The translations under genes were made by a program, and so were the position numbers. The notes under the pieces are model-generated. The model saw only the letters and a program-made list of their open reading frames with translations, had not been told where the DNA came from and ran no database searches. DNA of 60,272 nucleotides from Parcubacteria group bacterium GW2011_GWA2_36_10 (GTDB taxonomy: Bacteria; Patescibacteriota; Patescibacteriia; UBA1558; GWA2-36-10), in the NCBI GenBank assembly GCA_000991205.1, contig LBRC01000004.1, positions 1 through 60,272 of the forward strand, given 5' to 3'. Below, in pieces: positions 1,474 through 58,007 of this stretch; the first letter of the stretch is position 1, and each line of letters opens with the position of its first letter.

Positions 1474-2800
1474 AGCAGATTTTATTTTTAATAGCTTGGC
1501 TTTTATTTTATTGCTAATTTTACCTTGGCAAACTCGTTGGATTTTTCAGAGCATTAAAATAGCGGATCAAACTTGGGAGTATGGCCAATTAGGACTTTAT
1601 GCTAGCATGATCTTGCTTATTATTTTGTTAGCTTTATATTTTGCTAATAAAGCCAAGAATACCAGTTGTCATCCCCGCGTAGACGGGGAGGGGGTACTTG
1701 TATTATTTATTTTGTATTTAATTATTCTAGCATTTTTTAGTCCTTTAAGCACTTTAAGTTTTTATTATCTAGGCATGCTTATTTTAGCTTCACTATCCAT
1801 TTTAGTTTGGCAAAAAATAAAACCCGCAGTCTTTTATGCTGGCTTATTAGCGAGTGGTGCTGTGCAGGGAGTTTTTGTCTGGTATCAGATGTTGATGCAG
1901 ACTAGCCCAGCTAATAAATGGTTTGGTTTAGCTACTCACTCGGCGGCTGACCTAGGTACTTCAGTGGTACAATATGATTTAAATAGGATGTTAAGAGCCT
2001 ATGGTTCTTTGCCACATCCAAATATTTTAGGTGGTTTTTTACTTTTTAGTTTATGGGCTGGTATTTGGTGGTGGCTACATTTGTATAGTGAAAGCAAAGA
2101 GGAGAGTTGGCAAATCAGTAAAATAAAAAAACACCTTTGGCCTTTAGTAGTTGTTTTAGTCAGCCTTATTTTAGTTTTATTTGCCTTATTTTTTACTTTT
2201 TCTCGTTCAGCTGCTTTAGCTTGGTTTGTGAGCTTAGCTGTTTTAATCTTTATAGCAATTTTTAGGAAAAAGTTTTTAGCTTTGCAGATTTTTACTAAAG
2301 CCTTTTTATTAAGTATCGCAGTTTTGTTAGCAGTTAATTTTTTATTTCCCGGTGCCTGGGTGACACGCTTAAAAGCGCAAGGTGATTTAGAAGCGAGGTC
2401 TTTGGCAGAAAGACAATTATCTTTTCAGCAAATTGATTGGCATAATTATCAACAATTAATATTAGGCCAGGGTTTAGGTGCTAATACCTATCTCGCTTAT
2501 CAAAAAAATAATTTAGGCGAACAAAAATTGCCACCTTATGTTGTCCAGCCAATTCATAATTTTTATTTATTAGTCTTAGCCGAAAGTGGCATTATCACTT
2601 GTTTGTTTTTATTATATTTTTTGTTTAGCGCTTGGCGCAAAAAATTATTTCAAAAACCAAACTTGATTTCTTTGGGTTTATTAATTTCTGTTTTGCTAGT
2701 AAGTTTACTAGATCATTATCTTTGGACCACTTGGACAGGAATTTTATTGCTATTTATTACTTTAAGTCTGTTTATTCACCCCGTTAGATATATAGAGTAA
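1457..2800 (+). CDS. Polytopic membrane protein, O-antigen ligase (Wzy_C)-like
   Basis: 447 aa with many hydrophobic segments and a TFSRSAALAW-type core. It overlaps the upstream ORF by 17 nt. It contains the in-frame GC palindrome 1673-1688, and its last codons (HPVRYIE-stop) lie in the palindromic element 2778-2829. Confidence 0.6.
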   Translation: MKNLFKADFIFNSLAFILLLILPWQTRWIFQSIKIADQTWEYGQLGLYASMILLIILLALYFANKAKNTSCHPRVDGEGVLVLFILYLIILAFFSPLSTLSFYYLGMLILASLSILVWQKIKPAVFYAGLLASGAVQGVFVWYQMLMQTSPANKWFGLATHSAADLGTSVVQYDLNRMLRAYGSLPHPNILGGFLLFSLWAGIWWWLHLYSESKEESWQISKIKKHLWPLVVVLVSLILVLFALFFTFSRSAALAWFVSLAVLIFIAIFRKKFLALQIFTKAFLLSIAVLLAVNFLFPGAWVTRLKAQGDLEARSLAERQLSFQQIDWHNYQQLILGQGLGANTYLAYQKNNLGEQKLPPYVVQPIHNFYLLVLAESGIITCLFLLYFLFSAWRKKLFQKPNLISLGLLISVLLVSLLDHYLWTTWTGILLLFITLSLFIHPVRYIE

Positions 2801-2829
2801 TCATTTTTTTGTTAATTATCTAACGGGGT
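2778..2829. repeat. Palindromic element, copy 1 (CACCCCGTTAGATA ... TATCTAACGGGGT)
   Basis: 13-bp arms at 2780-2792 and 2817-2829 around an AT-rich loop. The same arms recur at 11894-11948. The left arm supplies the last codons and stop region of ORF 1457..2800. Confidence 0.8.
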
Positions 2830-2847
2830 AAAAAAGAGGAGTAATTC

Positions 2848-2876
2848 TTGACAAAAGCTTTTTAGCACTCTATAAT
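2848..2876 (+). promoter_or_regulatory. Sigma70-type promoter of groES-groEL
   Basis: TTGACA (2848-2853), exact 17-nt spacer, TATAAT (2871-2876). Confidence 0.8.
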
Positions 2877-2888
2877 GTAGAGTGCTAA
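2862..2888 (+). promoter_or_regulatory. CIRCE operator (HrcA binding site)
   Basis: TTAGCACTC-N9-GAGTGCTAA is a perfect match to the CIRCE consensus. It overlaps the -10 box upstream of groES. Confidence 0.9.
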
Positions 2889-2912
2889 TTTAATCATTAA
2901 ATTGAAAAACAT

Positions 2913-3188
2913 ATGAATCTAAAACCATTAGGAGATCGTGTGATCATCAAAGTTTTACCAAAACAAGAAACTACTAAGTCTGGTATTATTTTACCAGAGT
3001 CAGTTACTAAAGAAAATCGCCTTGAAGGAGAAATTGTCTCACTGGGTCAAGGTGAAAAAATCAAGGCTTTAAATTTAAATGTTGGCCAAAAAGTTATTTG
3101 CGCTGAATATGGTGGTACAGAAATAAAAGTAGATGGACAAGAATATAAAATTTTGAATCACGAAGATTTATTAGCTGTCGCTACATAA
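2913..3188 (+). CDS. groES: Co-chaperonin GroES
   Basis: 91 aa. The N-terminus LKPLGDRVIIK and mobile loop ETTKSGIILPES are typical Cpn10 features. It lies directly upstream of groEL. Confidence 0.95.
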   Translation: MNLKPLGDRVIIKVLPKQETTKSGIILPESVTKENRLEGEIVSLGQGEKIKALNLNVGQKVICAEYGGTEIKVDGQEYKILNHEDLLAVAT

Positions 3189-3260
3189 ATCAGTTCGCAA
3201 GTTGACAAGTTATCAAGTGTATTAGATAACTTGTGACTTGTAAACTTTTTTAACTTTTAA

Positions 3261-4894: not shown

Positions 4895-5680
4895 ATGAAG
4901 CATGATAATAAAAATAAAATCAATTTTGATCAAGTCGAAGAATTAGATTGGCAAGCTAATGAAAATTATCCTTGGGAATACGAAGTCAAGGATGAAGTTT
5001 GGTTAGCTGATTTGTCTAAAATTGCTAAACCTCAAAAAATAAAAAAAACTTTAGTAAAGCCAGAGATCAAAGTTTCAGTCAGTGAGCAAATTATTTCTGA
5101 TCCGCAAAATATAGATGAAAAAGCAGCCGAAGAAAAAATCACGGTCGTCGATACAGAACTAAAATTTACGCCTGATCAAGAAAGTGAAATATTTGAGCCA
5201 GCTGAAACTGTAGTTTCGGCTATTAGCGATCAATGGTTTGAAGAGCAGAAACAGACCGCCCAGAGGGCGACCGCCTCGCGGGCGGAAAAAGTTAGTTTTG
5301 ATTGGTCAGATAATTTTTCTTGGGTTTTTGCGAGCTTAGTTTTATTTGTTTTTGTCTTAGCTGGTGAAATTGCCTTGCATTTTGTTAGTCAACATTGGTA
5401 TTGGTCAGCGACTTACTTATTATTATCTCTATGGCTTTGGCGCATAGCAGTTTTAGTTGGCTGGTTTTATTTAGGCGCTAGACGTTGGTTTTTGGCGACT
5501 GAACAAATTATGATTACCGCTGTCCTGGGTCAATTAGTCGCAGTTTTTGCTTCTGGCATTTATCGTATTTTTGTCATTCACAGTTTATGGACTTGGCTAA
5601 GTCTAGTAGTGGAGCCGATTTGGATGTTACTTATTATCGCTGTCGCTGGCAGTTTATTTGTCAAAATAATTAATAAATAA
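4895..5680 (+). CDS. Hypothetical membrane protein (acidic N-terminal half, 4-5 TM C-terminal half)
   Basis: 261-aa ORF with no recognisable family. Two in-frame GC mini-hairpins at 5257-5285 encode TAQRATASRAE. Confidence 0.6.
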   Translation: MKHDNKNKINFDQVEELDWQANENYPWEYEVKDEVWLADLSKIAKPQKIKKTLVKPEIKVSVSEQIISDPQNIDEKAAEEKITVVDTELKFTPDQESEIFEPAETVVSAISDQWFEEQKQTAQRATASRAEKVSFDWSDNFSWVFASLVLFVFVLAGEIALHFVSQHWYWSATYLLLSLWLWRIAVLVGWFYLGARRWFLATEQIMITAVLGQLVAVFASGIYRIFVIHSLWTWLSLVVEPIWMLLIIAVAGSLFVKIINK

Positions 5681-5698: not shown

Positions 5699-5717
5699 CT
5701 TCCGCCTACGGCGGAAG
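5699..5717. repeat. GC hairpin CTTCCGCC-TAC-GGCGGAAG (possible terminator)
   Basis: 8-bp perfect stem 19 nt after the stop at 5680. There is no clear T-run. Confidence 0.45.
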
Positions 5718-10101: not shown

Positions 10102-10197
10102 AATAAAGACAAATTAAAACACCCCCCCAAGGGGGTGTTTTAATTTTGTAAATTTTGCTATGATATAATTAAATTTCACATTATTTCTTCAGGCGAG

Positions 10198-10214
10198 CCC
10201 CGCCGAAGGCGGGG
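10198..10214. repeat. GC palindrome CCCCGCC-GAA-GGCGGGG, copy 1
   Basis: An identical 17-mer recurs at 20148-20164. Confidence 0.85.
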
Positions 10215-10251
10215 CTTTACTAAAGTTTATGATATTGAAAAAAATAAAAAT

Positions 10252-11169
10252 ATGGACATAATATATTCTTTAAAGAAAAATATTTGGGCAGTGATTTTAT
10301 TGAGCATTGCCTTATCTTTTTGGTGGCCAAGTTTTGGCTTATTTTTACAGCCAAGCGCCATCTATCTTTTGATGCTTTTAATGCTGTTTTCCGTGCTAGA
10401 TATGAGCTACAGAAAAGTATTCAAAGAGCTAAAGCATGATTTTAGCAAAATAATTTTGAGTTTACTTATCGTTCATTTAGCCGGACCATTGATTATTTTA
10501 TTTTTTAAACCCTGGCTAGAGCCTAGTTTATTTTTAGGCTTGATTTTAGCGACTGCTATCAATGCGGGTATTAGTATTGTTTTTCTAGCTAAACTATACG
10601 GTGGTTCATCTAGCCAAAGCTTAGTGATAGCCGCTTTATCACAAATCTTAAGCCCGATCATCGTGCCGACAGTAGTCTTTATTTTTGCTAGTACTACTTT
10701 GCACATCGATCCCATGAGCATGGCTTTGACGATTGCTAAATTAGTTTTATTACCGATTGCTTTATCGATGTTAGTGCGACGCAGTAGTTTTTATCACGGC
10801 TTAGTCAAAATATCTTCCAGTGTTAATATTATTTTATTATTTTTATTAATCACCGCTATTATCGCGCCATTAAGACTATTGATTTTAAGTAACTTACAGC
10901 AAGCTGGCTGGCTAGCTTTATTAGTTGCTTTAGTATTAGTAGTAGATTTTTCTTTAGGATTTTTCTTGGGTAAAAACAGAAGCGAGCAAGTGACTTTTGG
11001 TATTTCAGCTAGCTATAAAAACTTTGTGCTAGCTAATGTCTTAGCTATGACTTTATTTGGGCCTTTAGTCGCACTTCCAGCTGCTATCTATGCAGTTTTA
11101 AGTAATTTGTTTTTAATTCCTTTACAATTTTTGTGTTGCCCTACCAGCCGCGAAGCGGGCAAAAAATAA
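10252..11169 (+). CDS. Polytopic membrane transporter, bile acid:Na+ symporter (BASS)/Acr3-like
   Basis: 305 aa with about 9-10 TM segments, resembling the BASS family by eye only. The C-terminal PTSREAGKK is encoded by a GC hairpin at 11147-11160. Confidence 0.45.
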   Translation: MDIIYSLKKNIWAVILLSIALSFWWPSFGLFLQPSAIYLLMLLMLFSVLDMSYRKVFKELKHDFSKIILSLLIVHLAGPLIILFFKPWLEPSLFLGLILATAINAGISIVFLAKLYGGSSSQSLVIAALSQILSPIIVPTVVFIFASTTLHIDPMSMALTIAKLVLLPIALSMLVRRSSFYHGLVKISSSVNIILLFLLITAIIAPLRLLILSNLQQAGWLALLVALVLVVDFSLGFFLGKNRSEQVTFGISASYKNFVLANVLAMTLFGPLVALPAAIYAVLSNLFLIPLQFLCCPTSREAGKK

Positions 11170-11170
11170 T

Positions 11171-13996: not shown

Positions 13997-15340
13997 ATGC
14001 CAAACAAAAAAACTGTCTCCGCCAGAGGCGGAAAAACTGACAGAGTAAAATTGAATAAAGGCAAAACATCGGCTTCTACCAAGAGTAGGGGGCGTAAAAG
14101 TTTAAGCATTAAGCTTAAAGTCAAAGATGCTAAAAAGCATCCAATGAGCATGAAAAAGTCCAAGTCTACTAGTCAGCTAAAAAAAAGCGCAAAAGCAGAC
14201 AAAAAAAAGATTAGTTTCAAACATACTAAAGCTTTAATCAAGGCGCCAAAGGCTTCTTTGGATTTTAACTTGGTAGAAAATTTATTAAACAAAGGACGCA
14301 TGCGTGGCTTCTTGACTGAAGATGAGCTCTTGCGCATTTTTTGTGATCTAGAAGACTATGTCGATAAATTTGAAGAGTTTATCGATCACCTAGAAGACTT
14401 AGCCGTCACCATAGTCCCAAGTGAAGGTGGCATTTTAGATCGTTCAAATCAAACACCAGGTGCTTTGTCCAAAGCTGGTGTGCAAAACGACGAAAAGCGT
14501 GGTGATTTGACGGATATTGCGGCTGACTCTATTCAGATGTATTTACGCGAGATCGGCAAAGTTTCTTTATTAAACTCGGAAGAAGAGGTAATGTATGCCA
14601 AGCGCAAAGAAAAAGGTGATTTAGAAGCTAAGAAAAGATTAGTAGAAGCTAACTTGCGTTTGGTAGTTTCTATCGCTAAAAAATTTACTGGACGTTCTTT
14701 ATCTTTACTGGACTTAATCCAAGAAGGCAATATTGGTTTATTTAGAGCGGTTGAAAAGTTTGATTATCGTAAAGGCTATAAGTTTTCTACTTATGCTACT
14801 TGGTGGATCAGACAGGCGATTACTCGCGCGCTCGCTGATCAGTCCAGAACTATTCGTATCCCAGTGCACATGGTCGAAACTATCAATCGTTTTAATCAAA
14901 TCGAAAGACGCTTAGTCCAAGATTTGGGTCGTGACCCATTGCCAGAAGAAATAGCCGCCGAAATGGGTGAAGACATTGATAAAGTGAGACAGATTATCAA
15001 AATCTCTCAAGAAACAGTTTCGCTAGAAGCCTCTGTCGGCGATGATGATGAAGATAGCACCTTGGGAGACTTTATCGAAGATGAAAAAACTATTACGCCA
15101 GACAGAGTCGCGGCTTTAAGACTTTTGTCTGATCATGTCAAAGCTATTATTTCTGACTTAACGCCTCGCGAACAAAAGATTTTAGAAATGCGTTTTGGTT
15201 TAGCTGATGGGGTAGCTCATACTTTAGAGGAAGTTGGTCAAGAGTTCGGTGTCACTCGTGAGCGTATTCGTCAGATCGAAGCCAAAGCTTTGGAGAAAAT
15301 CCAAAAGCATGAGCAAATGAGAAAATTACAAGATTACTGA
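13997..15340 (+). CDS. rpoD: Primary RNA polymerase sigma factor RpoD
   Basis: Region 2 ([31 protein letters not shown]) and region 4.2 ([24 protein letters not shown]). The basic Lys-rich N-terminal extension contains a GC hairpin at 14018-14032. Confidence 0.95.
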
Positions 15341-15880: not shown

Positions 15881-17524
15881 ATGCTAAAAATTCTTAAATT
15901 AAAAAACTATCAATTTTTTGGCCTGTTAGTTTTTTTAGGCTTATTATTTTTTTCCGCCAGAGGCGGACCCGCCTCTGGCAGGGGCTGGTATTTTTTGTCT
16001 GATGATTGGCATTGGTTGTATTTAGCCAAAAACAGAGTTTGGTCTTGGGATATTTTCATGACAAATTATGAAGGTCTACAAGTTGGTGGCTCATATAATC
16101 CCTTGAGTTTTTTAGTCTTTAAAATATTTTATAACTTATTTCATTTAAAAGCTGGATTTTATCATCTTGTTAGTATCTTAGTTCACAGTCTTAATGCTTA
16201 TCTAGTTTTTATTTTGGTGAACAAAATTTTTGTTCAAGATGAAACTAAAAAATATTTAGCTTATTCTACAGCTATTTTATTTTTGCTTTGGCCGACGCAA
16301 ACAGAGATCGTCAATTGGTTGGCAGCTTGGCCACATTTATGGGCCAGTACTTTTTATTTATTAAGCTTTATTTATTATTTAAACTATCGCCAAAAAGATA
16401 AAGCTAAATTTTTAGGTTTATCGCTTTTGTTTTTTATTATTAGCCTAGGTTTCAAAGAAAATGCTTTGAGTTTGCCGATCCTTATTTTTTTATGGGAAGC
16501 TTATTTATTTTCTAAAAAAGCAGTAAAAAATTGGTCATGGGCTTTTAGTGCTTATTTATTGTTATTAGCAGCATTTTTATTTTTACGCCAGCTTATTACC
16601 GGAGCTTTATTTGGTTATTATGGCCAAAGCCAGCTAGATACTTCGTTGTTGGCTTATTTTGCTAATCTACTAGCTTTCTTAAGTTCGCAATTTACTTTTG
16701 GGGTGGTTAATATTTGGTTTTATAAATTTTATTATCATTATTTAGACTTACTTTTTATTTTTGGCGCTAGCTTTTTGAGCTTATATTTTTTCTTTACTTG
16801 GTATTATAAAAAATGGCAGCAGTTTACTTTAGTAGTTTCTGGAATGATAGTTTTATTACCGATGTTGCCATTGGGTTTGCACCATTTGAATTTTGCTGGT
16901 GAGAGGTATATGTATTTATCTTCAGCTTTTATAATTGTGTGGTTTCTAGTTTTGATATCAGAGAGTGGTTTGTCAGCCAAAAAAATGAGCTATTTATGCA
17001 TTATTTTGAGTGTAGTTATTTTATTTCCTTTAGAGATTAAAAATAATATTTGGCAGCAAGCCAATACTTTAAGTCGGCGGATTATTTCTAGCTACCAAGA
17101 TTTAAAATTAGCCCCTGATGTAAAATTAATTTCTGTTGGCTTGCCAGATAATTTAAGTGGCGCTGAAGTTTTTCGTAATAATTTACAGCAAGCTTTAGAG
17201 CTTAGCTATCCAAACTACAAGGGTGAAATCAAAACTTTACCTGCCTATTTATTTTTGAATACCAAAAATAAAAATGATCATTTATTAAAATGGCGTCAAG
17301 ATGCTTTGGGTTGGTTTGTTGAAAGTGTAGACGGACAATTTGTAGTGACTGGTCAGACTTCGATTATTAAAGACAATGTGTATTTTGAATTGTGGAATTA
17401 TAATTATCAAAACTATACAGCGAATTTAATGCGTCTGATGCCCGCAGAGGAGCTAAAACAGCAATTATTAAGAGGCGAAGTAAAATGGTTGACTTTTGAT
17501 AGGGGTAGATTAATTGTTTATTAG
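15881..17524 (+). CDS. Large polytopic membrane protein, PMT/ArnT-like glycosyltransferase (GT-C fold), tentative
   Basis: 547 aa with more than 10 TM segments followed by a soluble C-terminal domain. An in-frame 11-bp-stem palindrome at 15956-15979 encodes ARGGPASG. Confidence 0.5.
   Translation: MLKILKLKNYQFFGLLVFLGLLFFSARGGPASGRGWYFLSDDWHWLYLAKNRVWSWDIFMTNYEGLQVGGSYNPLSFLVFKIFYNLFHLKAGFYHLVSILVHSLNAYLVFILVNKIFVQDETKKYLAYSTAILFLLWPTQTEIVNWLAAWPHLWASTFYLLSFIYYLNYRQKDKAKFLGLSLLFFIISLGFKENALSLPILIFLWEAYLFSKKAVKNWSWAFSAYLLLLAAFLFLRQLITGALFGYYGQSQLDTSLLAYFANLLAFLSSQFTFGVVNIWFYKFYYHYLDLLFIFGASFLSLYFFFTWYYKKWQQFTLVVSGMIVLLPMLPLGLHHLNFAGERYMYLSSAFIIVWFLVLISESGLSAKKMSYLCIILSVVILFPLEIKNNIWQQANTLSRRIISSYQDLKLAPDVKLISVGLPDNLSGAEVFRNNLQQALELSYPNYKGEIKTLPAYLFLNTKNKNDHLLKWRQDALGWFVESVDGQFVVTGQTSIIKDNVYFELWNYNYQNYTANLMRLMPAEELKQQLLRGEVKWLTFDRGRLIVY
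15956..15979. repeat. Perfect GC palindrome inside a CDS (GCCAGAGGCGG-AC-CCGCCTCTGGC)
   Basis: 11-bp perfect stem with a 2-nt loop. The half-site CCGCCAGAGGCGG also occurs in rpoD at 14018-14032. Confidence 0.85.
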
Positions 17525-17755: not shown

Positions 17756-17856
17756 TTCGACTACGTTCTGCTTTGCAGAACTTCGCTCATGGTCTTCGAC
17801 CGCTTTTGTTTACATAACAAATAAGTCGAATGTCCTGAGCGCAGCCGAAGGGCATT
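17756..17856. repeat. tRNA-trailer palindromic element, copy 1
   Basis: It starts right after the CCA with TTCGACT and carries the conserved block TTCGCTCATGGTCTTCGACC (17782-17801). CATTCGACT (17754-17762) pairs with AGTCGAATG (17824-17832). Confidence 0.75.
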
Positions 17857-17865
17857 TACTTTTAC

Positions 17866-18075: not shown

Positions 18076-18171
18076 CTTATTTTTATATCGTGAGATACCT
18101 GCCTGCCGGCAGGCAGGGAGCAGTTGAGCGATAGCTTTCTAAAGAGTTAAGGTTTATTATTTTTTACGCAT

Positions 18172-20186: not shown

Positions 20187-21497
20187 TTATTCAGCTGCTC
20201 CACCCATCACTCGGATTGGGCCGCCACCGTTGTCTTGATTTTGCGCTTGATCAATGATGTCTTTAGCAAGGGGTATAACCACACTAGTTTTGTATGGATT
20301 GTCTGAATTTTGTGGATTTAAAATCGGGAAGACTAAAGCAGGTACTAATAATTCATCGTTAATATTATTTTTGTATTGCCAAGTGCGGACATATTGGAGC
20401 TTTGGGGTGCCGACTGGAATCTCTACGATTTTAGTATCAGTTTCTTGATAGTTATAATAAGGATAAATACTGCCGTTTCGTAAGAGTTTTAAAATTTTTT
20501 CTTTATCGGTTTCCATTTTATAGTTTGAGCTTTGGTAGTTTTGGGTATTTAAATTATAAAGGGAGCTAACTTTATTAAATTCTAAATTGACATTTAGTTG
20601 TAAGCCTTGTTTATTACCCCAATCATCATATATTTGTTTGCCGTCAAGTAAGAGTGGATAAATCACTGAAACACTATTAGAAACTGGATAGATGCTAGAT
20701 ACAGCAGTATCTTCTGCCTTAGCCATCGGTAGCATGAGGTTGTAGTTATTTTTCTGGACTTCTGGCTGGCCATAAAGTTTAGCATCGATGTCGTGTTCGG
20801 CTAAAAAATTATCAGTTAAAGCAATGATAGCATCGTCAGCTGGGATATCAGTATTTTTGAATTCGCGAGGAGCATAGTTTGTATCGTACCATTTTGCCCA
20901 GTTTTCACTCAAAGAAATACTACCTTCAAAAAGATTAATATAAAGTGAATAGCCAAATTTTTTGTCTTGAACAATATTAAAATTATTCAATCCAGCATCA
21001 GCAAAGCTATTTAAATTTAATAAGCCTAGATTAAAGTTACCAAAATTATTTTTCGCATTTTCGCCCCCGCCTTGACTTGGCGAGGCAGGTTTGATTCTTT
21101 TTAAAACAGCTAATTCTTCATCGTTTAAACTAAATTCATCACCTTGATAAACATATTGATAATAAGTTGGTTGATAGATCAGCATACTGTCTGGGGCGAT
21201 CATTTTGCCATCAACAGCCCCACCAGCATTAGTGGCATTAGGCATAGCCACAGCCACGCCATTTCTTTGGCTATTACTTTCGGTTAGATTTTGATCGCCA
21301 CTGACCGCTTGGTAAGTTAAAGAGCCAAAAGCTTCAGCGGCTACTTTTTTGATGTTTAAACTCAAACCATTTTGATCTAGGGGATTATTATTATTGTCTG
21401 TTGGTTGATTAGTGTTTGGTTTTTGCCAAGTCATCACAGCATAAACTATGATCAAAACTAGCACCAAAGTAGCCAGAAGATAACGTGTATTTTTCAT
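20187..21497 (-). CDS. Hypothetical secreted or anchored protein
   Basis: 436 aa with an N-terminal signal anchor (YLLATLVLVLIIVYAV). Asn-rich. No family was recognised. Confidence 0.6.
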   Translation of the reverse strand: MKNTRYLLATLVLVLIIVYAVMTWQKPNTNQPTDNNNNPLDQNGLSLNIKKVAAEAFGSLTYQAVSGDQNLTESNSQRNGVAVAMPNATNAGGAVDGKMIAPDSMLIYQPTYYQYVYQGDEFSLNDEELAVLKRIKPASPSQGGGENAKNNFGNFNLGLLNLNSFADAGLNNFNIVQDKKFGYSLYINLFEGSISLSENWAKWYDTNYAPREFKNTDIPADDAIIALTDNFLAEHDIDAKLYGQPEVQKNNYNLMLPMAKAEDTAVSSIYPVSNSVSVIYPLLLDGKQIYDDWGNKQGLQLNVNLEFNKVSSLYNLNTQNYQSSNYKMETDKEKILKLLRNGSIYPYYNYQETDTKIVEIPVGTPKLQYVRTWQYKNNINDELLVPALVFPILNPQNSDNPYKTSVVIPLAKDIIDQAQNQDNGGGPIRVMGGAAE

Positions 21498-38436: not shown

Positions 38437-38608
38437 CGCTTTTTCACGCCATAGGCGGGACCCCGCCAACGGCGGTGGCTTCTTAATTATTATTTTCTTC
38501 GTGGTTATCATAATATAATGATGAGAATTTGTAAAATCAGCTCATTTTACATCTTGTCTATTTTTTGTTAAAATATATTCACCTTAATTATTGATTTAAA
38601 ATAAAATT

Positions 38609-39184: not shown

Positions 39185-39200
39185 CCCCGCGTACGCGGGG
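39185..39200. repeat. GC palindrome CCCCGCGTACGCGGGG, copy 1
   Basis: An identical 16-mer occurs at 57992-58007, with variants at 21586-21601 (..GTAT..) and 1673-1688. Confidence 0.85.
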
Positions 39201-39825: not shown

Positions 39826-42765
39826 ATGCCTAATTTTAAAGATCAAGAACAAGAAATATTAGATTTTTGGGATAAAGATCAGACTTTTCAAAAATCAGTA
39901 GAAAAACAGGCGCCACTTGGTGACTATCTTTTTTATGATGGTCCGCCCTTTGCCACTGGTACACCGCACTATGGTCATTTAGTCGCCAATGTTATGAAAG
40001 ACGTGGTACCACGTTTTTGGACCATGCATGGCTATCGGGTAGAAAGAATTTGGGGCTGGGATTGTCATGGTTTGCCAGTCGAAAACATTGTCGAAAAAGA
40101 ATTAGGCTCACAAAGTAAAAAAGTAATTGAAGCCATGGGTGTAGCCAAGTTCAACGAGCTTTGTCGCTCCAAAGTTTTGAGCTATGTCGCTGACTGGGAG
40201 CGAGTCGTTAGACGTTTGGGTCGCTGGGTGGACATGAAAAATTCTTACCGCACCATGGACATCGGCTTTATGGAGTCTGTCTGGTGGGTGTTTAAATCTT
40301 TATGGGATAAAGATTTGATTTACCAAGACTATCGCTCGATGCACATCTGTCCTAGATGTGAAACTACTTTATCACAATCAGAAGTAGCGGAAGGCTACAA
40401 AGATATCAAAGACTTATCAGTCACCGCTGAGTTTGAATTAGTCGATGAACCGGGCACTTTTGTTTTGGCTTGGACTACCACGCCTTGGACTTTGTTGGCC
40501 AATGTCGCTTTGGCTGTCGGTGCAGATATTAGCTATGTAAAAATTGAAAAAAAAGATGAAGGTACAGGGGACTTAATAAGATTTATTTTAGCCAAAGAAA
40601 AAGCTGAACAAATATTTGCTGGCCAAGAATTTAAAGTTATTGAAGAGTTTAAGGGCCAAGCTTTAGTCGGCAAAAAATATAAAGCTTTGTTTGACTATTA
40701 TGCTAAAGATGAGAATTTAGCAAATCATGCCAATGGTTGGCAAATAGTGACAGCTGATTTTGTCACCACTGAAGATGGTACTGGTGTCGTCCATATCGCT
40801 CCGGCTTTTGGTGAGGATGATATGAATCTTGGTCGGGAGAAAGACCTGCCTTTTGTGCAACACATTGGCATGGATGGTGTTATCAAAGAGCAAGTAGTAG
40901 ATTTCGCTGGTTTGCATGTCAAACCAAAAGATGATGTGCAAGCCACTGATGTCGCCATTATTAAATATTTGGCTAATAAAAATTTATTATTTGCTAAAGA
41001 AAAATATGAACACAGCTATCCACATTGCTGGCGTTGTGACACACCCTTGATTAACTACGCTACCTCATCGTGGTTTGTTAGTGTGACTAAAATAAAAACT
41101 GATGCCTTGGCACAAGCCGAGAAAATCAACTGGACGCCGGAGCATATCAAAGCTGGTCGTTTTGGTCAGTGGCTGACTGGCGCTCGTGACTGGTCTATTT
41201 CTCGTCAAAGGTTTTGGGCTTCAGTCATGCCGATCTGGGTCTGTAGTGAGTGTGATGATAAAATAGTTTTTGGTTGCACGGCTGACTTAGAAAAAGCCAG
41301 CGGTCAAAAGGTGACGGATTTACACAAACATATTGTCGATGAAGTGACTTTCAAATGTGCGAAATGTTCAGGCACGATGAAGCGCGTGCCAGATGTTTTG
41401 GATACTTGGTTTGATTCGGGCTCGATGCCTTATGCGCAGATGCACTATCCTTATGAAAATAAAGAGAAGTTTGACCATTCTTTTCCGGCGAAATTTATCG
41501 CCGAAGGTGTCGATCAGACTAGAACTTGGTTTTATTATCTGCATATTTTGGGCACAGCTTTAAAAAATTCTCCCGCTTTTGAAAATGTCATCGTCAACGG
41601 TATAGTTTTGGCTGAAGATGGTAAAAAGATGTCAAAAAAGCTTCAGAATTATCCTGATCCAGAGCTAGTGATAGAGAAGTATGGTGCTGATGCTTTGCGT
41701 TTATATTTATTATCTTCTCCTGTCATGCTAGCGGAAAATTTATCTTTTGCCGAGAAAGATTTACAAGTAGTGTACCGTAGATTTACAGCTTTGCTACAAA
41801 ACGTCTTGTCTTTTTATCAGATGTTCAAAGCAGAGGAGAAGCAAGTAGCTTTTAATCCCCTATCTTTACATAATATTTTAGACAAGTGGATAGTAGCCAA
41901 ACTGGCAAATTTAAATACTGAAGTGGAGCTGGCGATGAAAGAGTATAATCTAGTCAAAGCTACGCGTCCCCTATTTGATTTTGTGGATGAACTTTCTACT
42001 TGGTACTTGAGACGTAGTCGAGAAAGATTCAAAGGCGATGACGAAGCAGACAAACAAGAAGCTTTGGGAACGCTTGCTTTTGTCTTACAAAATTTTGCTA
42101 AAATCATCGCCCCGTTTACGCCGATGACTGCCGAAATCCTTTGGCAAGAATTCCGCCCACAGGGCGGTCACCCTGTGGGTGAGCACACGTCTGTCCATCT
42201 AGAAGCTTGGCCAGAAAAACTAAACATTGCAGCGGCAGAAAATATCTTGCAAGCCATGACAGCCACGCGTGATATCGTCGAAACTGTCCATGCTTTGCGT
42301 GCGGCTGCTAACCTAAAAGTCAGACAACCATTAGCTACTTTAGAAATCACAGCCAAGCTAAGCCAAGAGTATTTAGACTTATTGGCTGACGAGCTCAATG
42401 TCGAGCAAATAGTGATAGCCAATGAAGTGACGGTAGATAATGGCTGGCTCCAGCAAGAAGTAAATAATCTCAAAATTTCTTTGGATACTAATTTAACTGA
42501 TGATTTAAAGAAGAGTGGTTTCAAAAGAGAGTTTATTCGTACTATGAATAGTCTGCGTAAAGAAAAAAATTTAAGACATTCGGATAAACCAGTAGAAATA
42601 TTTTTTACTAAATCAGATTATTATAAAAAATTAATAGAAGAAAATTCTAGTGAGATTATAGCCGCTACTTCAGCGAGTGGTTTAGAATTTGTTGATAATC
42701 CAGATCCAAATAAATCAAAATCATTTCCGATTGATGGTGAGCAAATTATCTTAGGTTTAAAATAA
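39826..42765 (+). CDS. ileS: Isoleucyl-tRNA synthetase
   Basis: HIGH (PHYGH), KMSKS (KMSKK) and the CP1 editing domain. 979 aa. It contains an in-frame 9-bp-stem GC palindrome at 42156-42179. Confidence 0.95.
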   Translation: MPNFKDQEQEILDFWDKDQTFQKSVEKQAPLGDYLFYDGPPFATGTPHYGHLVANVMKDVVPRFWTMHGYRVERIWGWDCHGLPVENIVEKELGSQSKKVIEAMGVAKFNELCRSKVLSYVADWERVVRRLGRWVDMKNSYRTMDIGFMESVWWVFKSLWDKDLIYQDYRSMHICPRCETTLSQSEVAEGYKDIKDLSVTAEFELVDEPGTFVLAWTTTPWTLLANVALAVGADISYVKIEKKDEGTGDLIRFILAKEKAEQIFAGQEFKVIEEFKGQALVGKKYKALFDYYAKDENLANHANGWQIVTADFVTTEDGTGVVHIAPAFGEDDMNLGREKDLPFVQHIGMDGVIKEQVVDFAGLHVKPKDDVQATDVAIIKYLANKNLLFAKEKYEHSYPHCWRCDTPLINYATSSWFVSVTKIKTDALAQAEKINWTPEHIKAGRFGQWLTGARDWSISRQRFWASVMPIWVCSECDDKIVFGCTADLEKASGQKVTDLHKHIVDEVTFKCAKCSGTMKRVPDVLDTWFDSGSMPYAQMHYPYENKEKFDHSFPAKFIAEGVDQTRTWFYYLHILGTALKNSPAFENVIVNGIVLAEDGKKMSKKLQNYPDPELVIEKYGADALRLYLLSSPVMLAENLSFAEKDLQVVYRRFTALLQNVLSFYQMFKAEEKQVAFNPLSLHNILDKWIVAKLANLNTEVELAMKEYNLVKATRPLFDFVDELSTWYLRRSRERFKGDDEADKQEALGTLAFVLQNFAKIIAPFTPMTAEILWQEFRPQGGHPVGEHTSVHLEAWPEKLNIAAAENILQAMTATRDIVETVHALRAAANLKVRQPLATLEITAKLSQEYLDLLADELNVEQIVIANEVTVDNGWLQQEVNNLKISLDTNLTDDLKKSGFKREFIRTMNSLRKEKNLRHSDKPVEIFFTKSDYYKKLIEENSSEIIAATSASGLEFVDNPDPNKSKSFPIDGEQIILGLK

Positions 42766-49440: not shown

Positions 49441-52065
49441 ATGGAAAAAATAGTTTTCAAAACTTGTGAGGCCTGTGGGGGTAGCGGTGAGGCTGGCTCG
49501 CCTTGCGGCGGAGCGGGCGGACGTAAATGTCCAGCTTGCTTTGGGGCTAAGTGTTTTTTTGTAGAGAATAACAATTTTTATTATTGGCAAAAATTAATCA
49601 ATCGTTCTAGCATTATCGTGCGAGAGACGAGAGAGATTATCGATCTGGTGATCAATGGTTTGTTGATCATGGGTGCTTTGTCTTCAGTTTATTTGGTTTA
49701 TAAAATATTGAATCAAGTGGAGTTTGATCCACGCAATCTGATTACTTTTTTGAGCACTCCCGGTAAAAATAATCTCTGGCTGATGGTTTTGGTAGTGGTA
49801 AATATGTATCTCTATTATCGTCTGGCTATTCCGGCGCAAAAACAAAAAGCGATTAAACAAAAGTTAGCAGACGAACAAGTATTTTTTAAATATAATATTG
49901 CTGAAAGTTTAAACCAAGAAACCGAGTGGATGCTAGACCGAGCCTGGCTTTATGCTTTGCGTAAAGGTGTCTGGCCAGTGACCGTCTGGCATTTACTTTT
50001 TGTGTTATTAGAAGATAAAGATGTCAAAGTAGTGCTAGCACGCTTGGGAGTCGGAGCACAGAATTTACAGCAAATCATTGATCAACGCTTAGCAGATTTG
50101 GTCGCCAAAAATACGCCAGGCGAGTTGAGTAGAGCCGAAAAACTAGATTTGACAACTGAAGTCAAAAACGTGATTTTGTTTGCTTATCATCATGCGATCA
50201 AAATAAGACATAGTGAAAAAATAGAGGAAATAGATTTGTTGGCTGGCTTGACGCAAGTCAGTGAGGCTATTAAAGACTTTTTTTATGATTTTGATATCGA
50301 TGAAAACAAAGTGGACAATGTCATTGCCTGGATGGATATCAATGTCAAGCTAGTAGAAAATTATCGTCGCTATCGCGGGCGGGCTTTATTTAAGCCTAAG
50401 TCAGGTATCAATCGCTCTTATACTGCCATTGCTACGCCGGTCTTAAATAGTTTTTCTGAAGATTTGACTTTGGCTGCTAAGTCTGGACTTTTGTCTTTGG
50501 TAGTTGCTCGCGATAAAGAAATCAAAGAAATCATTGACGCCATGGAAAGCAATTTGGACTCGGTGATTTTAGTCGGCCCGGGCGGTACTGGTAAGACAAA
50601 CATAGTACAGGCGATTGCCAATCTGATGATGGCCGAAGAAATGCCAGACATTTTCCAAGACAAACGTTTAGTTAGTTTATCGGTGCCAGCCCTAGTCTCT
50701 GGCGCAGGTCAACAAGGTAATTTAGAAGAAAGATTGATGGCGATGCTCAATGAAATAGCGGTGTCAGGTAATATTATTTTATTTATTGATAATATTCATA
50801 ATTTAGTAGGTGTCAGTTCGCAGGGCTCGGAAGGTTTAGATTTAGCCGAAGTCTTAGCCACTGCGGTCGCTGAAAAAAGTGTGATCTTGATCGCCACGAC
50901 GACCAATGAAGACTACATCAAGTATCTAGAAGGTAAACAGTTAGCGCAAGTTTTACGAAAAGTAAATATTTTAGAAACTGATAAAAATCAGACGATACAG
51001 ATATTAGAATCACATGTTGGCTATCTAGAAAATAAACACAAAATTTATTTTACTTATAATTCTTTAGAAAAGATTTTTGATTTAGCAGATCGCTATTTAC
51101 CTGATCAGCATTTACCCCAAAAAGCTTTGCAGATTTTAGAAGCCGTGGCCTTGCAAGTAGCTAAAAATAATCGTCAAGACAAATTGGTTCGCTCTGAAGA
51201 TGTAGCGGTCTATGTTTCAGGTATTACCAATATTCCTTTAACTACTATTTCCGCTGATGAGTCTAGTAAGCTATTAAATTTAGAGGCAGATATTCACCAG
51301 CGCGTGATTGGCCAAGATGAGGCGGTTAAACAGGTCTCGACAGCCTTACAGCGTGCTCGTGCAGAACTGCGAGATAAAAAACGTCCGATTGTGAATCTTT
51401 TGTTTTTGGGACCAACTGGTGTGGGTAAAACCGAGCTAGCTAAAGCTGTGGCCGAGAAATATTTTGGCAATGAAGAAAATATGATCCGCTTAGACATGTC
51501 GGAATACCAAAACCAAGATAGTGATATTTTGAATGTTTTTTTACAAGTGATGGAAGACGGACGCTTAACTGATGCTTTGGGTCGCACGGTAGATTTTACC
51601 AATTTGATCATCGTTGTGACTTCCAATGCTGGTACTAGCTATATCCAAGAGCAAATTTCACAAGGCCGAAAAACCGAAGATTTCAAAGATGATTTAATTA
51701 AAAATAAATTGCAAGGTATTTTTCGGCCAGAGTTTTTAAATCGTTTTGATGGCGTGATTTTATTTAAGCCTTTGACTGAAGAAGAAATTTTTACTATAGC
51801 GGGCTTGATGCTCAATAAAGTCAAACAACGTTTAGAGCTAAAAGGTATTTTCTTTGAAGTCACCAAAGAAGCGCAGACAGAATTAGCTCAAGCTGGTTTT
51901 GATCCTGTTTTTGGCGCTCGACCATTAAGGCGAGTGATTCAAGAGCAAGTAGATAATGCTTTAGCGAAGTTTTTACTCCAAGGTAGTTTGAATCGGCGAG
52001 ATATTGTGGTTTATGATGTTGGTGGAGAGATTCGTGTCAAAAAAGCTTTGAGCTATAAAAATTAA
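49441..52065 (+). CDS. Clp/Hsp100-family AAA+ homolog with an N-terminal zinc finger and two TM segments; degenerate ATPase motifs
   Basis: CEACGGSG...CPAC finger, two hydrophobic helices, Clp_N-like repeats, NBD1 (GPGGTGKT; Walker B ILFIDNIH) and NBD2 (GPTGVGKT), with the block containing Walker B missing. ClpB D2-small tail. Confidence 0.8.
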   Translation: MEKIVFKTCEACGGSGEAGSPCGGAGGRKCPACFGAKCFFVENNNFYYWQKLINRSSIIVRETREIIDLVINGLLIMGALSSVYLVYKILNQVEFDPRNLITFLSTPGKNNLWLMVLVVVNMYLYYRLAIPAQKQKAIKQKLADEQVFFKYNIAESLNQETEWMLDRAWLYALRKGVWPVTVWHLLFVLLEDKDVKVVLARLGVGAQNLQQIIDQRLADLVAKNTPGELSRAEKLDLTTEVKNVILFAYHHAIKIRHSEKIEEIDLLAGLTQVSEAIKDFFYDFDIDENKVDNVIAWMDINVKLVENYRRYRGRALFKPKSGINRSYTAIATPVLNSFSEDLTLAAKSGLLSLVVARDKEIKEIIDAMESNLDSVILVGPGGTGKTNIVQAIANLMMAEEMPDIFQDKRLVSLSVPALVSGAGQQGNLEERLMAMLNEIAVSGNIILFIDNIHNLVGVSSQGSEGLDLAEVLATAVAEKSVILIATTTNEDYIKYLEGKQLAQVLRKVNILETDKNQTIQILESHVGYLENKHKIYFTYNSLEKIFDLADRYLPDQHLPQKALQILEAVALQVAKNNRQDKLVRSEDVAVYVSGITNIPLTTISADESSKLLNLEADIHQRVIGQDEAVKQVSTALQRARAELRDKKRPIVNLLFLGPTGVGKTELAKAVAEKYFGNEENMIRLDMSEYQNQDSDILNVFLQVMEDGRLTDALGRTVDFTNLIIVVTSNAGTSYIQEQISQGRKTEDFKDDLIKNKLQGIFRPEFLNRFDGVILFKPLTEEEIFTIAGLMLNKVKQRLELKGIFFEVTKEAQTELAQAGFDPVFGARPLRRVIQEQVDNALAKFLLQGSLNRRDIVVYDVGGEIRVKKALSYKN

Positions 52066-52069
52066 AGTC

Positions 52070-52098
52070 TTGACACTTAGCCTAAAAAGGCATAATAT
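52070..52098 (+). promoter_or_regulatory. Sigma70-type promoter of cassette D1
   Basis: TTGACA (52070-52075), 17-nt spacer, TAATAT (52093-52098), starting 5 nt after the Clp-like stop. Confidence 0.65.
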
Positions 52099-52231
52099 TA
52101 CTTAGTATTTTTTGATCTTTGACTTTGACAATGAAAAGATAGATAGATTTTCACCCTCAACTTTTAAAGCACACTTTGGAGGAAGTGTGATGTGTTCGAA
52201 ACAACTACCGGTCAACATGGAGGATCTTCCT

Positions 52232-57991: not shown

Positions 57992-58007
57992 CCCCGCGTA
58001 CGCGGGG
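57992..58007. repeat. GC palindrome CCCCGCGTACGCGGGG, copy 2
   Basis: Identical to 39185-39200. It lies in the spurious N-terminal extension of ORF 57979..59085. Confidence 0.85.

What the first reader, a model, noticed from the sequence alone, without database searches (positions are those of the whole stretch)
15956..15979. GC-rich palindromes inserted in frame inside protein-coding genes
Seen in the sequence: short GC palindromes of the same kind that fill the intergenic regions also occur inside long ORFs without breaking the frame.
- 15956-15979: 11-bp perfect stem, encodes ARGGPASG in the GT-C-like membrane protein.
- 14018-14032: TCCGCC-AGA-GGCGGA in the rpoD N-terminal extension.
- 1673-1688: CCCCG-CGTAGA-CGGGG in the Wzy-like gene, encodes PRVDG.
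- 5257-5285: two hairpins, encode TAQRATASRAE.
- 11147-11160: C-terminus of the BASS-like transporter.
- 42156-42179: in ileS.

Each adds a small Gly/Arg/Pro/Ala-rich patch to otherwise Lys/Ile/Leu-rich proteins.

Established knowledge: in-frame colonisation of genes by palindromic selfish elements is documented for Rickettsia palindromic elements.

Inference: a comparable process may operate here with much shorter elements.
Basis: partly seen in the sequence, partly recalled or inferred. Interest (0 to 1): 0.6.

Follow-up and report, generated by a model that had tools for sequence, protein, structure and literature searches.

The report
Tiny GC-rich mobile inserts inside genes
In this very small, AT-rich Parcubacteria (candidate phyla radiation, CPR) genome, families of 15-36-base GC-rich repeats, most of them hairpin-forming, have recently been inserted both between genes and in frame inside housekeeping genes, where they add short Gly/Ala/Arg/Pro loops; this resembles the Rickettsia palindromic elements but at a fraction of their size.

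Summary
Observation confirmed; interpretation supported.

**The six sites.**
- All six exist as described.
- Each is lineage-specific: absent from a same-genus genome (G001). Three of them were polarised as insertions by outgroups: GT-C, ileS and the BASS (bile acid:sodium symporter family) gene.

**Chance.** GC-rich hairpins lying inside coding sequences (CDS) exceed synonymous-shuffle expectation: 54 versus 19.8±4.2.

**Families.** The sites belong to dispersed families:
- a 30-nt double hairpin, [YCRCCC-N3-GGGYGR]x2;
- a 21-mer, CTCGCCTCGCGNCGNAGCGGG, which is only weakly palindromic;
- a 36-mer encoding ATAERGPAKGGK;
- 15-18-nt single hairpins.

**Signs of mobility.**
- Filled and empty sites differ by exactly 18, 21, 30 or 36 nt, with no target duplication. 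The 30-mer inserts at TA|TA.
- Families whose length is a multiple of three live in genes. The 16-20-nt families are almost all intergenic.
- Copies sit in unrelated proteins, mostly in one reading phase.
- The inserts encode 61% Gly/Ala/Arg/Pro. In the GT-C model the insert coincides with the only segment of pLDDT below 50.
- Within the taxonomic family, genomes carry these repeats patchily. The 30-mer architecture recurs across many CPR lineages.

**Mechanism.** No RAYT/IS200 transposase is present. Small mobile GIY-YIG nuclease cassettes are a weakly supported candidate mobiliser.

**Novelty.** Earlier follow-ups of this scan found the same phenomenon on other CPR genomes. I found no published description. 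Best filed as a new variant of a known kind: intragenic REPs and RPEs, and mitochondrial GC clusters and double-hairpin elements.

The parts
15953..15982 (+). 30-nt double hairpin (TCCGCC type), in frame in the GT-C glycosyltransferase gene 15881-17524; encodes SARGGPASGR
   Evidence: Sequence. DNA fold z = -4.7. Net +18 nt against G001. Absent from 11 orthologues and 30 homologues. pLDDT below 50 at residues 29-33. The host has a GT-C fold.
14018..14032 (+). 15-nt hairpin TCCGCCAGAGGCGGA in codons 8-12 (SARGG) of rpoD (13997-15340)
   Evidence: z = -4.1. The identical 15-mer occurs in the same phase in two other genes and at one intergenic site. G001 carries a different GC-rich element at this position. 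Outgroups have Lys-rich sequence here.
1672..1689 (+). 18-nt hairpin TCCCCGCGTAGACGGGGA in a loop of the Wzy_C (O-antigen ligase-like) gene 1457-2800
   Evidence: Relatives of this hairpin are at C40 3889 and at intergenic 21585. G001 has another GC element at the same loop. The loop is 2 residues longer than in outgroups.
5256..5285 (+). 30-nt double hairpin in a 261-aa membrane-protein gene (4895-5680); encodes TAQRATASRAE
   Evidence: matches the F30 pattern with 1 mismatch. It replaces an AT-rich linker in G001 and outgroups, net +3 residues.
11140..11160 (+). Clean 21-nt GC-rich insertion (CCTACCAGCCGCGAAGCGGGC) before the last two codons of the SBF/BASS transporter gene 10252-11169; encodes PTSREAG
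   Evidence: Exact 21-nt gap in G001. Absent in 4 orthologues. Only weakly folded, z about 0.
42153..42182 (+). 30-nt double-hairpin element (F30) in ileS (39826-42765); encodes RPQGGHPVGE
   Evidence: Exact match to the F30 pattern. Fold z = -3.7. The insert is unique among 25 genomes and lies in an indel-prone loop of the anticodon-binding region.
49491..49517 (+). 21-mer family copy (TCGCCTTGCGGCGGAGCGGG) in the Cys-rich N-terminus of a ClpB-like AAA+ gene (49441-52065); encodes SPCGGAG.
   Evidence: Clean 21-nt gap in G001. Family membership and reading phase. Host domains.
21066..21089 (-). 24-nt GC-rich in-frame insertion (sense strand CCTGCCTCGCCAAGTCAAGGCGGG, read in phase 0 as PASPSQGG) in gene 20187-21497.
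   Evidence: Clean 24-nt gap in G001.
18098..18117 (.). Intergenic member of the CCTGCCTGCCGGCAGGCAGG family, inside a 93-nt insertion between tRNA genes
   Evidence: 14 copies in G000 and none in G001. The insertion relative to G001 is shown.
5701..5715 (.). Intergenic copy of the TCCGCC-N3-GGCGGA hairpin, just after the stop of gene 4895-5680
   Evidence: This family has 27 copies per genome, 18 of them intergenic in G000.
38454..38475 (-). Double-hairpin-like GC element in the 5' leader of gene 37381-38511, upstream of the conserved ATG and therefore not coding
   Evidence: The element is absent in G001, and the start codon conserved between the two genomes lies downstream of it.
57992..58007 (+). 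CCCCGCGTACGCGGGG 16-mer in the 5' leader of gene 57979-59085 (the true ATG is about 58037); one of the almost exclusively intergenic 16-mer family
   Evidence: 12 copies in G000 and 30 in G001.

Best explanation
These are copies of several families of ultra-short (15-36 nt), GC-rich, mostly hairpin-forming, non-autonomous mobile or selfish DNA elements. They spread through AT-rich Patescibacteria genomes.

**Shown.**
- A copy arrives as a unit of exact length (18, 21, 30 or 36 nt) with no target-site duplication. The 30-nt double hairpin lands between TA and TA.
- Copies are gained and lost between congeneric genomes.
- The same sequences sit in unrelated genes and in intergenic DNA.
- The families are patchily distributed among genera.

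**Inferred.**
- Insertions inside genes persist only under three conditions: the element length is a multiple of three; it lands in a tolerant loop, linker or terminus; and it is read in the phase that gives a flexible Gly/Pro/Ala/Arg/Ser peptide. The insert is then simply translated.
- All other insertions are purged. This explains the phase bias and why the 16-20-nt families are almost all intergenic.

**The mobilising activity is not identified.** It acts in trans and probably recognises the hairpin as single-stranded or cruciform DNA. The leading but weak candidate is the multi-copy, itself mobile, free-standing GIY-YIG nuclease cassette found next to some copies.
For: **Lineage-specific insertions.**
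- GT-C.
- ileS.
- BASS.
- rpoD, site D and Wzy.

**Filled and empty sites between G000 and G001.**
- Exact-length filled/empty sites occur in both directions. About 34 GC-rich indels of 9 nt or more are extra in G000 and about 39 are extra in G001.
- Eleven indels are exactly 21 nt and six exactly 30 nt.
- No target-site duplication is seen.
- Three of four clean 30-mer sites are TA|TA; the fourth is TA|TG.

**Dispersed identical copies.**
- The 36-mer is in 4 + 4 genes.
- The 21-mer has 11 + 3 copies.
- The 19 host proteins share no homology.

**Phase bias.**
- All 7 sense copies of the 21-mer in G000 are in one phase.
- All 8 copies of the 36-mer, at 6 independent loci, share one orientation and phase, although all six frames are open.

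**Length and location.** Families of 3n length sit in CDS. The 16-mer, 14-mer and 20-mer families are 2/12, 1/16 and 4/14 in CDS in G000; some of those CDS calls rest on over-extended or doubtful ORFs (for example the 16-mer at 57992).

**Burst.** The CCTGCC 20-mer has 14 copies in G000 and 0 in G001.

**Distribution.**
- The 21-mer is in 7 of 39 family genomes and the 30-mer in 12 of 39, patchy within genera. The reversed-pattern control gave 0 hits in every genome.
- The 30-mer architecture occurs in many CPR lineages.

**Excess over chance.**

**Peptides.** The inserts encode Gly/Ala/Arg/Pro-rich peptides, and the GT-C insert lies in a low-confidence loop.

**GIY-YIG lead.**
- Cassettes are present or absent, or relocated, between G000 and G001.
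- The 30-mer brackets one cassette in G046 and sits 130 nt from one in G000 C29.
- 11 of 12 genomes with the 30-mer have that GIY-YIG clade, against 13 of 27 without it.
Against: - No enzyme has been shown to move the elements.
- No RAYT/IS200 gene is present.
- Only about 4 of 75 30-mer copies lie near a GIY-YIG gene, and many genomes lacking the 30-mer have many GIY-YIG genes.
- No insertion polymorphism was seen among ten strain-level contigs at 99% identity or more, covering window 5.3-27.4 kb. Movement is therefore not demonstrably ongoing in this population.
- Shared copies are no more conserved than their flanks. Identity of copies across genera therefore needs transfer or a conserved source that was not found.
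- The 21-mer family is not significantly structured, so a hairpin cannot be the whole story.
- Translation of the inserts is inferred from frame and length, not observed.
Confidence: 0.8

Rival explanations
1. The elements are REP/REPIN-type repeats mobilised by a RAYT (IS200-like Y1 HUH transposase), as in Pseudomonas and E. coli.
For: The 30-mer is an inverted doublet of two REP-like hairpins that can fold either as two hairpins or as one long hairpin. Like IS200/IS605-type insertion, it leaves no target duplication at a short target. Compare REPINs in PMC3116915.
Against: - PF01797 was not found in G000, G001, G004, G043, G046 or G051. These are the genomes richest in the elements and are 84-100% complete.
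- PF01797 is present in several genomes that lack the elements.
- There is no GTAG or CGTC tag at an element end (sequences; criteria from PMC3733652).
Confidence: 0.07
2. The GC hairpins are selected functional RNA or DNA structures (terminators, mRNA stabilisers, attenuators) that arise repeatedly in place. The intragenic ones are regulatory.
For: - Most intergenic copies look like bidirectional terminators: an A run, a CCCCGC..GCGGGG stem, then a T run.
- Their stems extend into locus-specific flanks.
- Density is about 17-fold higher per kb in intergenic DNA than in coding DNA (from the counts).
Against: - None of the six intragenic sites is followed by a T run on the sense strand.
- Identical 20-36-mers at unrelated sites, and clean unit-length gaps in the congener, cannot arise by local point mutation.
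- Shared copies are not more conserved than their flanks.
- The 21-mer does not fold significantly.
Confidence: 0.07
3. The inserts are selected at the protein level as functional peptide modules, such as flexible linkers or modification or recognition motifs like SPRGEAG, SARGG or ATAERGPAKGGK.
For: Phase and orientation bias is strong although every frame is open. The same peptide recurs near N-termini (SARGG three times).
Against: - The hosts are unrelated in function and fold.
- The inserts lie in hypervariable loops and termini and are absent from close relatives.
- There is no extra conservation.
- The same DNA families also lie in non-coding DNA.
- The GT-C insert is modelled as disordered.
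- The phase bias is equally well explained by purging of badly tolerated peptides.
Confidence: 0.05
4. Chance or artefact: GC-rich codons of ordinary motifs, or errors of assembly or binning.
For: About half of the GC-rich islands in CDS are conserved motif codons identical in G001. Two apparent intragenic copies (38454 and 57992) are really in 5' leaders, because the ORF calls were over-extended.
Against: - The excess over synonymous shuffles is about 8 standard deviations.
- The reversed-pattern controls gave zero hits in 39 genomes.
- The GT-C protein with its insert is encoded identically on contigs from more than 20 independent metagenome assemblies.
- The same families occur in a second, independently assembled genome.
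Confidence: 0.01

Closest known systems
Rickettsia palindromic elements (RPE; Ogata et al. 2000, as cited in PMC3184786 and PMC3733652)
   Same: - Selfish palindromic repeats in a small AT-rich genome.
- Inserted in frame in unrelated housekeeping genes and translated as extra loops.
- No transposase known.
- Also found in intergenic DNA.
   Different: - RPEs are about 105-146 bp (table in PMC3184786). These are 15-36 nt, three to ten times shorter.
- The phylum and the sequences are different.
- Here, exact unit-length filled and empty sites without target duplication are documented between congeners.
Intragenic REPs (GTAG- and CGTC-tagged REPs of Opitutus terrae, Rickettsia conorii RPE-4/6; Di Nocera et al. 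2013, PMC3733652) and REPINs (PMC3116915)
   Same: - GC-rich hairpins of 20-40 nt, often as inverted doublets, some inside genes and in frame.
- CGTC REPs also lack a dedicated transposase.
   Different: - No GTAG or CGTC tag.
- No RAYT in the element-rich genomes.
- Two families (the 21-mer and the 36-mer) lie almost only in coding sequence, and the 21-mer is barely palindromic.
Mitochondrial GC clusters of yeasts (e.g. GC42; PMC4478555) and double-hairpin elements of fungal mtDNA (Paquin, Laforest and Lang 2000; cited from my own knowledge, not read here)
   Same: - GC-rich hairpin or double-hairpin units of 30-50 nt invading an AT-rich compact genome.
- Presence/absence polymorphism, nesting and merging of units, and unknown mobilising activity. 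An endonuclease has been proposed.
- I recall that double-hairpin elements can lie in frame in genes; I did not check this.
   Different: - Those are organellar.
- GC42 has a putative AG target duplication, whereas none is seen here.
- The elements here are shorter and are found across a bacterial phylum.
Small dispersed repeats of Nostoc/Anabaena (Elhai et al. 2008; mentioned in PMC3116915. The sizes and intragenic copies given under 'same' are from my memory and were not read here.)
   Same: Very small (about 21-27 nt) mobile repeats, some inside genes.
   Different: A different phylum and different sequences.

Membership tests
REP/REPIN-RAYT system | A RAYT (Y1 HUH transposase, PF01797) gene in the genome, typically flanked by the REPs | tested here: not met
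   PF01797 is absent from G000 (88% complete) and from G001, G004, G043, G046 and G051. The positive controls gave hits.
REP/REPIN-RAYT system | A conserved GTAG (or CGTC) tetranucleotide at one end of the palindrome | tested here: not met
   Element ends read TCGCCC/CCRCCC, CTCGCC or GCCACC. GTAG occurs only inside some loops.
REP/REPIN-RAYT system | Short (20-40 nt) GC-rich imperfect palindromes, often as inverted doublets | tested here: met
   The 30-mer is two adjacent 15-nt hairpins with complementary loops.
Rickettsia palindromic elements | Palindromic repeat inserted in frame in unrelated ORFs and absent from orthologues | tested here: met
Rickettsia palindromic elements | Element length about 100-150 bp and sequence families RPE-1 to RPE-10 of Rickettsia | tested here: not met
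   Units here are 15-36 nt. Sequence comparison with RPE consensus sequences was not run.
MITEs | Terminal inverted repeats matching an autonomous IS, and target-site duplication | tested here: not met
   No target-site duplication at any clean filled/empty pair. No parent IS was found. Only PF01797 and GIY-YIG were searched.
Mitochondrial GC clusters / double-hairpin elements | GC-rich hairpin units dispersed in an AT-rich genome with presence/absence polymorphism, including coding regions | tested here: met
   The genome is 36% GC.
Mitochondrial GC clusters / double-hairpin elements | Organellar location; AG target duplication (GC42) | tested here: not met
   This is a bacterial chromosome, and there is no target-site duplication. 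The criterion comes from PMC4478555.
Intrinsic terminators | GC stem-loop immediately followed by a T run on the transcribed strand | tested here: not met
   None of the six intragenic sites has an adjacent T run. Many intergenic copies do.
GIY-YIG homing-endonuclease cassette ends (lead from earlier scan notes) | Element copies flank or abut free-standing GIY-YIG genes that are themselves mobile | tested here: inconclusive
   - The cassettes are polymorphic or relocated between G000 and G001.
- The 30-mer flanks both sides of one cassette in G046:C21, lies 130 nt from the G000 C29 cassette, and lies 570 nt from one in G004.
- This is about 4 of 75 copies against roughly 0.5 expected. Most copies are solitary.
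- Clade presence is 11 of 12 against 13 of 27, confounded by kinship.

The most novel reading that the evidence does not exclude
Patescibacteria carry a phylum-wide, undescribed class of the smallest known mobile elements.
- They are 15-36 nt and insert without target duplication at short AT targets.
- Some families have evolved lengths that are multiples of three, and benign reading frames, so that they can live inside essential genes.
- They are made or moved by the multi-copy free-standing GIY-YIG nuclease cassettes that home into tRNA genes. The solitary hairpins would be the cassettes' ends or footprints.
- They would then be a continuing source of new surface loops in CPR proteins.
Probability: 0.2. 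Interest if true: 0.8.

Novelty: new variant of a known kind. Interest (0 to 1): 0.6.

Why it matters
**Annotation and comparison.**
- Part of the many lineage-specific insertions seen in CPR proteins would be selfish DNA rather than adaptation.
- About 29% of the G000-specific coding insertions of 12 nt or more are of this kind.
- This affects how CPR proteins are aligned, modelled and compared.

**Mobile-DNA biology.**
- Units of 18-36 nt that insert without target duplication, and without a RAYT, challenge ideas about the minimum size of a transposable unit.
- The system is tractable. Short defined substrates, a TA|TA target and a small candidate nuclease allow a direct test of how REP-like elements without a dedicated transposase move.

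**Population dynamics.** The rule that element length modulo three decides where a family can live is a clean example of purifying selection sorting selfish elements into niches.

Tried and rejected
- **RAYT/IS200 as mobiliser.** Searched in the window's own genome and in 39 family genomes. Absent from the element-rich genomes.
- **Target-site duplications.** None at any clean filled/empty pair.
- **Purifying selection on element sequence.** Shared copies are no more conserved than 60-nt flanks: 77-78% against 80-83%.
- **Paralogy of host proteins as the cause of repeated peptides.** No blastp hit among 19 hosts.
- **Strain-level polymorphism.** Ten contigs of 99% identity or more from other groundwater metagenomes carry every element in window 5.3-27.4 kb. 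The only real differences are a 97-nt stretch in the tRNA cluster and a 710-nt AT-rich gene insertion next to site E. Three apparent breakpoints are 100-N scaffold gaps.
- **GIY-YIG motif scan.** My regular expression for GIY-YIG ORFs missed most genes. I used coordinates from the HMM search instead.
- **Two intragenic candidates dropped.** 38454 and 57992 lie upstream of the conserved start codons.
- **Literature.** Six searches found no description of such elements in CPR/Patescibacteria. A seventh call (46) was rejected as a malformed query and searched nothing.
Full report
**Setting.**
- The window is contig C4 of a 0.80-Mb, 48-contig genome with 36% GC.
- Earlier notes of this scan, and database names of homologues, place it in Parcubacteria/Patescibacteria, the candidate phyla radiation or CPR.
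- I called ORFs myself: 834 ORFs covering 91% of the genome.
- The genome search supplied a same-genus genome, G001, and 38 other genomes of the same taxonomic family.
- I fetched all of G001: 810 kb, 35.6% GC.
- Whole-genome blastn aligned 547 kb of the two genomes at 82% identity.

**The observation.**
- All six sites are present as described.
- The focal 11-bp stem at 15956-15979 is the centre of a 30-nt unit made of two adjacent 15-nt hairpins, TCCGCC-AGA-GGCGGA and CCCGCC-TCT-GGCAGG.
- Folded as single-stranded DNA, five sites beat composition-matched shuffles, with z from -2.3 to -4.7.
- The BASS (bile acid:sodium symporter family) site and a related 21-mer at 49.5 kb do not, with z about 0.
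- Genome-wide, perfect GC-rich hairpins with a stem of 6 bp or more inside ORFs number 54, against 19.8 ± 4.2 after synonymous-codon shuffling. For stems of 7 bp or more the figures are 19 against about 2.
- The density is still about 17-fold lower per kb than in intergenic DNA: 93 hairpins in about 73 kb.

**Two classes of GC-rich stretch in genes.** I compared every host protein with G001 by tblastn.
- One class is ordinary. These are GC-rich codons of conserved motifs (Walker A, FtsZ GGGTGTG, RecA-like loops), identical in G001.

**DNA-level alignments of the second class are clean.**
- Exactly 21 nt at 11140-11160 (BASS), at 49491-49511, and at five further G000 loci assigned to the 21-mer family.
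- Exactly 30 nt at C29 3292.
- 36 nt at C11 4886.
- 18 nt at C13 26710.
- 24 nt at window 21066-21089.
- G001 has its own private copies at sites that are empty in G000: 30 nt four times, 21 nt twice, and others.

**Polarity.**
- The GT-C insert is absent from 11 orthologues and from 30 database homologues, seven of them 79-82% identical.
- The ileS insert is unique among 25 genomes.
- The BASS insert is unique among 5.
- In rpoD, the Wzy-like gene and the 261-aa protein, the element occupies a hypervariable linker. At the rpoD and Wzy sites G001 carries a different GC-rich element at the same position, so these loops are repeatedly hit or tolerant.

**Structure of the GT-C host.**
- The AlphaFold model has mean pLDDT 88.5 and pTM 0.90.
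- Its only segment with pLDDT below 50 is residues 29-33, inside the insert. It lies between TM1 and the invariant SDD-containing helix.
- The fold matches GT-C enzymes such as STT3/PglB, ArnT and PMT.

**Families.**
- *F30.*
  - Pattern [YCRCCC-N3-GGGYGR]x2; 8 copies in G000 and 6 in G001. These include ileS and site D.
  - Site A belongs to a TCCGCC subtype, which also occurs as a tandem pair in G001.
- *F21.*
  - Pattern CTCGCCTCGCGNCGNAGCGGG; 11 copies in G000, 10 of them in ORFs, and 3 in G001.
  - The BASS insert resembles its 3' half.
- *F36.* GCCACCGCAGAGCGGGGTCCCGCCAAAGGCGGGAA; 4 + 4 copies, all in ORFs.
- *15-mers.* TCCGCC-N3-GGCGGA; 27 per genome, mostly intergenic.
- *Intergenic families.*
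  - CCCCGCGTACGCGGGG, 12 and 30 copies.
  - CCGGCATCCGCCGG, 16 and 28 copies.
  - CCTGCCTGCCGGCAGGCAGG, 14 copies in G000 and none in G001, which indicates a lineage-specific burst.

**Hosts and reading phase.**
- The 19 host proteins share no detectable homology.
- All 7 sense F21 copies in G000 are read as (S/L)P(R/C)(G/V)xAG, for example SPRGEAG.
- All 8 F36 copies, at six independent loci, are read as ATAERGPAKGGK, although all six frames are open.
- In-gene F30 copies mostly read RPxG(G/D)(H/R)P(V/L)G.
- The inserts are 61% Gly/Ala/Arg/Pro, against 20% in the proteome.

**Insertion anatomy.**
- No filled/empty pair shows a target-site duplication.
- Three of the four clean F30 pairs sit between TA and TA, and both dinucleotides are already present in the empty allele. 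The fourth sits between TA and TG.
- F21 shows no strict target.
- Families found in genes have unit lengths of 15, 18, 21, 30 or 36 nt. Families of 14, 16, 17 or 20 nt are almost all intergenic.
- This is what purifying selection against frameshifts would leave.

**Distribution beyond this genus.**
- In the 39 family genomes, F21 occurs in 7 and F30 in 12, up to 18 copies each.
- Genera are split: 5 of 7 genomes in genus g4 carry F30.
- The reversed-pattern control gave zero hits everywhere.
- In genus g4 the exact G000 20-mer is nested inside another hairpin, as TTCCCGC|F21|CGTAGGCGGGAA.
- A scan of the public genome collection found the F30 architecture in low-GC contigs labelled Komeili-, Kerfeld-, Azam-, Portnoy-, Uhr- and Saccharibacteria and other Patescibacteria. 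There are two loop subtypes.
- Hits in high-GC organisms are tandem coding repeats and are best explained by chance.

**Mechanism: the RAYT route.** The REPIN/RAYT route is not supported. PF01797 is absent from every element-rich genome and present in some element-free ones.

**Mechanism: the GIY-YIG lead.** I followed a lead from earlier notes of this scan.
- Small free-standing GIY-YIG genes occur at 1-10 copies in most family genomes; three genomes had none.
- In G000 all three are absent from the orthologous G001 site. One has an 81%-identical copy elsewhere in G001.
- They sit among tRNA genes with partial tRNA-end duplications and hairpins.
- F30 brackets one cassette in G046, lies 130 nt from the G000 C29 cassette, and lies 570 nt from one in G004.
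- That clade is found in 11 of 12 genomes with F30, against 13 of 27 without.
- This is suggestive only. Most copies are solitary, and kinship confounds the counts.

**Age.**
- Shared copies evolve no more slowly than their flanks.
- All elements in window 5.3-27.4 kb are fixed among ten strain-level contigs at 99% identity or more.
- The insertions therefore post-date the split from G001 and pre-date the strain-level diversity sampled here.

**Comparison with what is known.**
- In behaviour the elements match RPEs and intragenic REPs (PMC3184786, PMC3733652), and mitochondrial GC clusters and double-hairpin elements (PMC4478555).
- They fail the defining tests of each: size and sequence for RPEs; the tag and RAYT for REPs; terminal repeats and target duplication for MITEs; organellar location and AG duplication for GC clusters.
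- Six literature searches found no description in CPR.
- Earlier follow-ups of this scan reported the same kind of element on other Patescibacteria genomes. This window is therefore a further, well-resolved instance, not a first sighting.

**Limits.**
- Gene calls are my own ORF calls.
- G000 is 88% complete.
- Translation of the inserts is inferred, not observed.

Noticed in passing
G000 contigs C41 2391-2759, C25 16977-17281, C29 about 2650-3214 (outside the window): - Three small free-standing GIY-YIG nuclease genes (80-87 aa) lie among tRNA genes.
- All three are absent from the orthologous G001 sites. One has an 81%-identical copy at another G001 locus.
- They are flanked by partial duplications of tRNA ends and by hairpins of the TCCCGAG..CTCGGGA and GCCACGGG..CCCGTGGC types.
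- They look like mobile cassettes that home into tRNA genes.
   Followed up: partly
window 18098-18117 and 13 other G000 sites: - The 20-nt palindrome CCTGCCTGCCGGCAGGCAGG has 14 copies in G000 and none in the congener G001.
- The window copy lies in a 93-nt insertion between two tRNA genes.
- One copy abuts a scaffold gap (C31), and one lies 14 nt upstream of a GIY-YIG gene (C41).
   Followed up: partly
window 14018-14032 (rpoD) and 1672-1689 (Wzy-like): At both positions G001 carries a different GC-rich element. In rpoD it resembles the 21-mer in antisense; in Wzy it is about 50 nt and palindromic. The same loops have therefore been hit independently, or the elements replace one another.
   Followed up: partly
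L099-L105 (G004, G043, G046; genus g4): The exact 20-mer TCGCCTCGCGGCGAAGCGGG is nested inside another hairpin. Removing it restores TTCCCGCCGTAGGCGGGAA. So elements insert into elements, as described for yeast mitochondrial GC clusters.
   Followed up: no
genome-wide intergenic hairpins, e.g. window 10196-10216, 39185-39200: - Almost all hairpins have the C-rich arm 5' and the G-rich arm 3', which for a palindrome holds on both strands.
- Many loops are GAA, GTA or GCA closed by C:G. From my own knowledge this is the motif of unusually stable DNA mini-hairpins.
- Stems often extend into locus-specific AT flanks.
   Followed up: no
L266 4571-5280, inserted at window 11161-11170: One strain-level contig (99.3% identical) has a 710-nt AT-rich insertion encoding a 225-aa membrane protein. 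It is flanked by a 10-nt direct repeat, AAAAAATAAT, and lies immediately after the 21-nt GC insert of the BASS gene.
   Followed up: partly
window 17763-17859: A 97-nt stretch in the tRNA cluster is missing from one strain-level contig (L267). This is the only other real indel among ten contigs at 99% identity or more.
   Followed up: no
window 52000-54500: A stretch of 44-51% GC in a 36% GC genome, where my ORF caller finds overlapping ORFs on both strands. Earlier notes of the scan describe it as a GC-rich locus of secreted proteins.
   Followed up: no
G001 C7 11051-11075 (empty site at G000 C2 19417): A 25-nt insertion consists of a GC hairpin plus 7 nt (TTGTTTG) that pair imperfectly with the downstream flank. 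Part of the stem may have been copied backwards from the target, as an earlier scan note proposed for another family.
   Followed up: no
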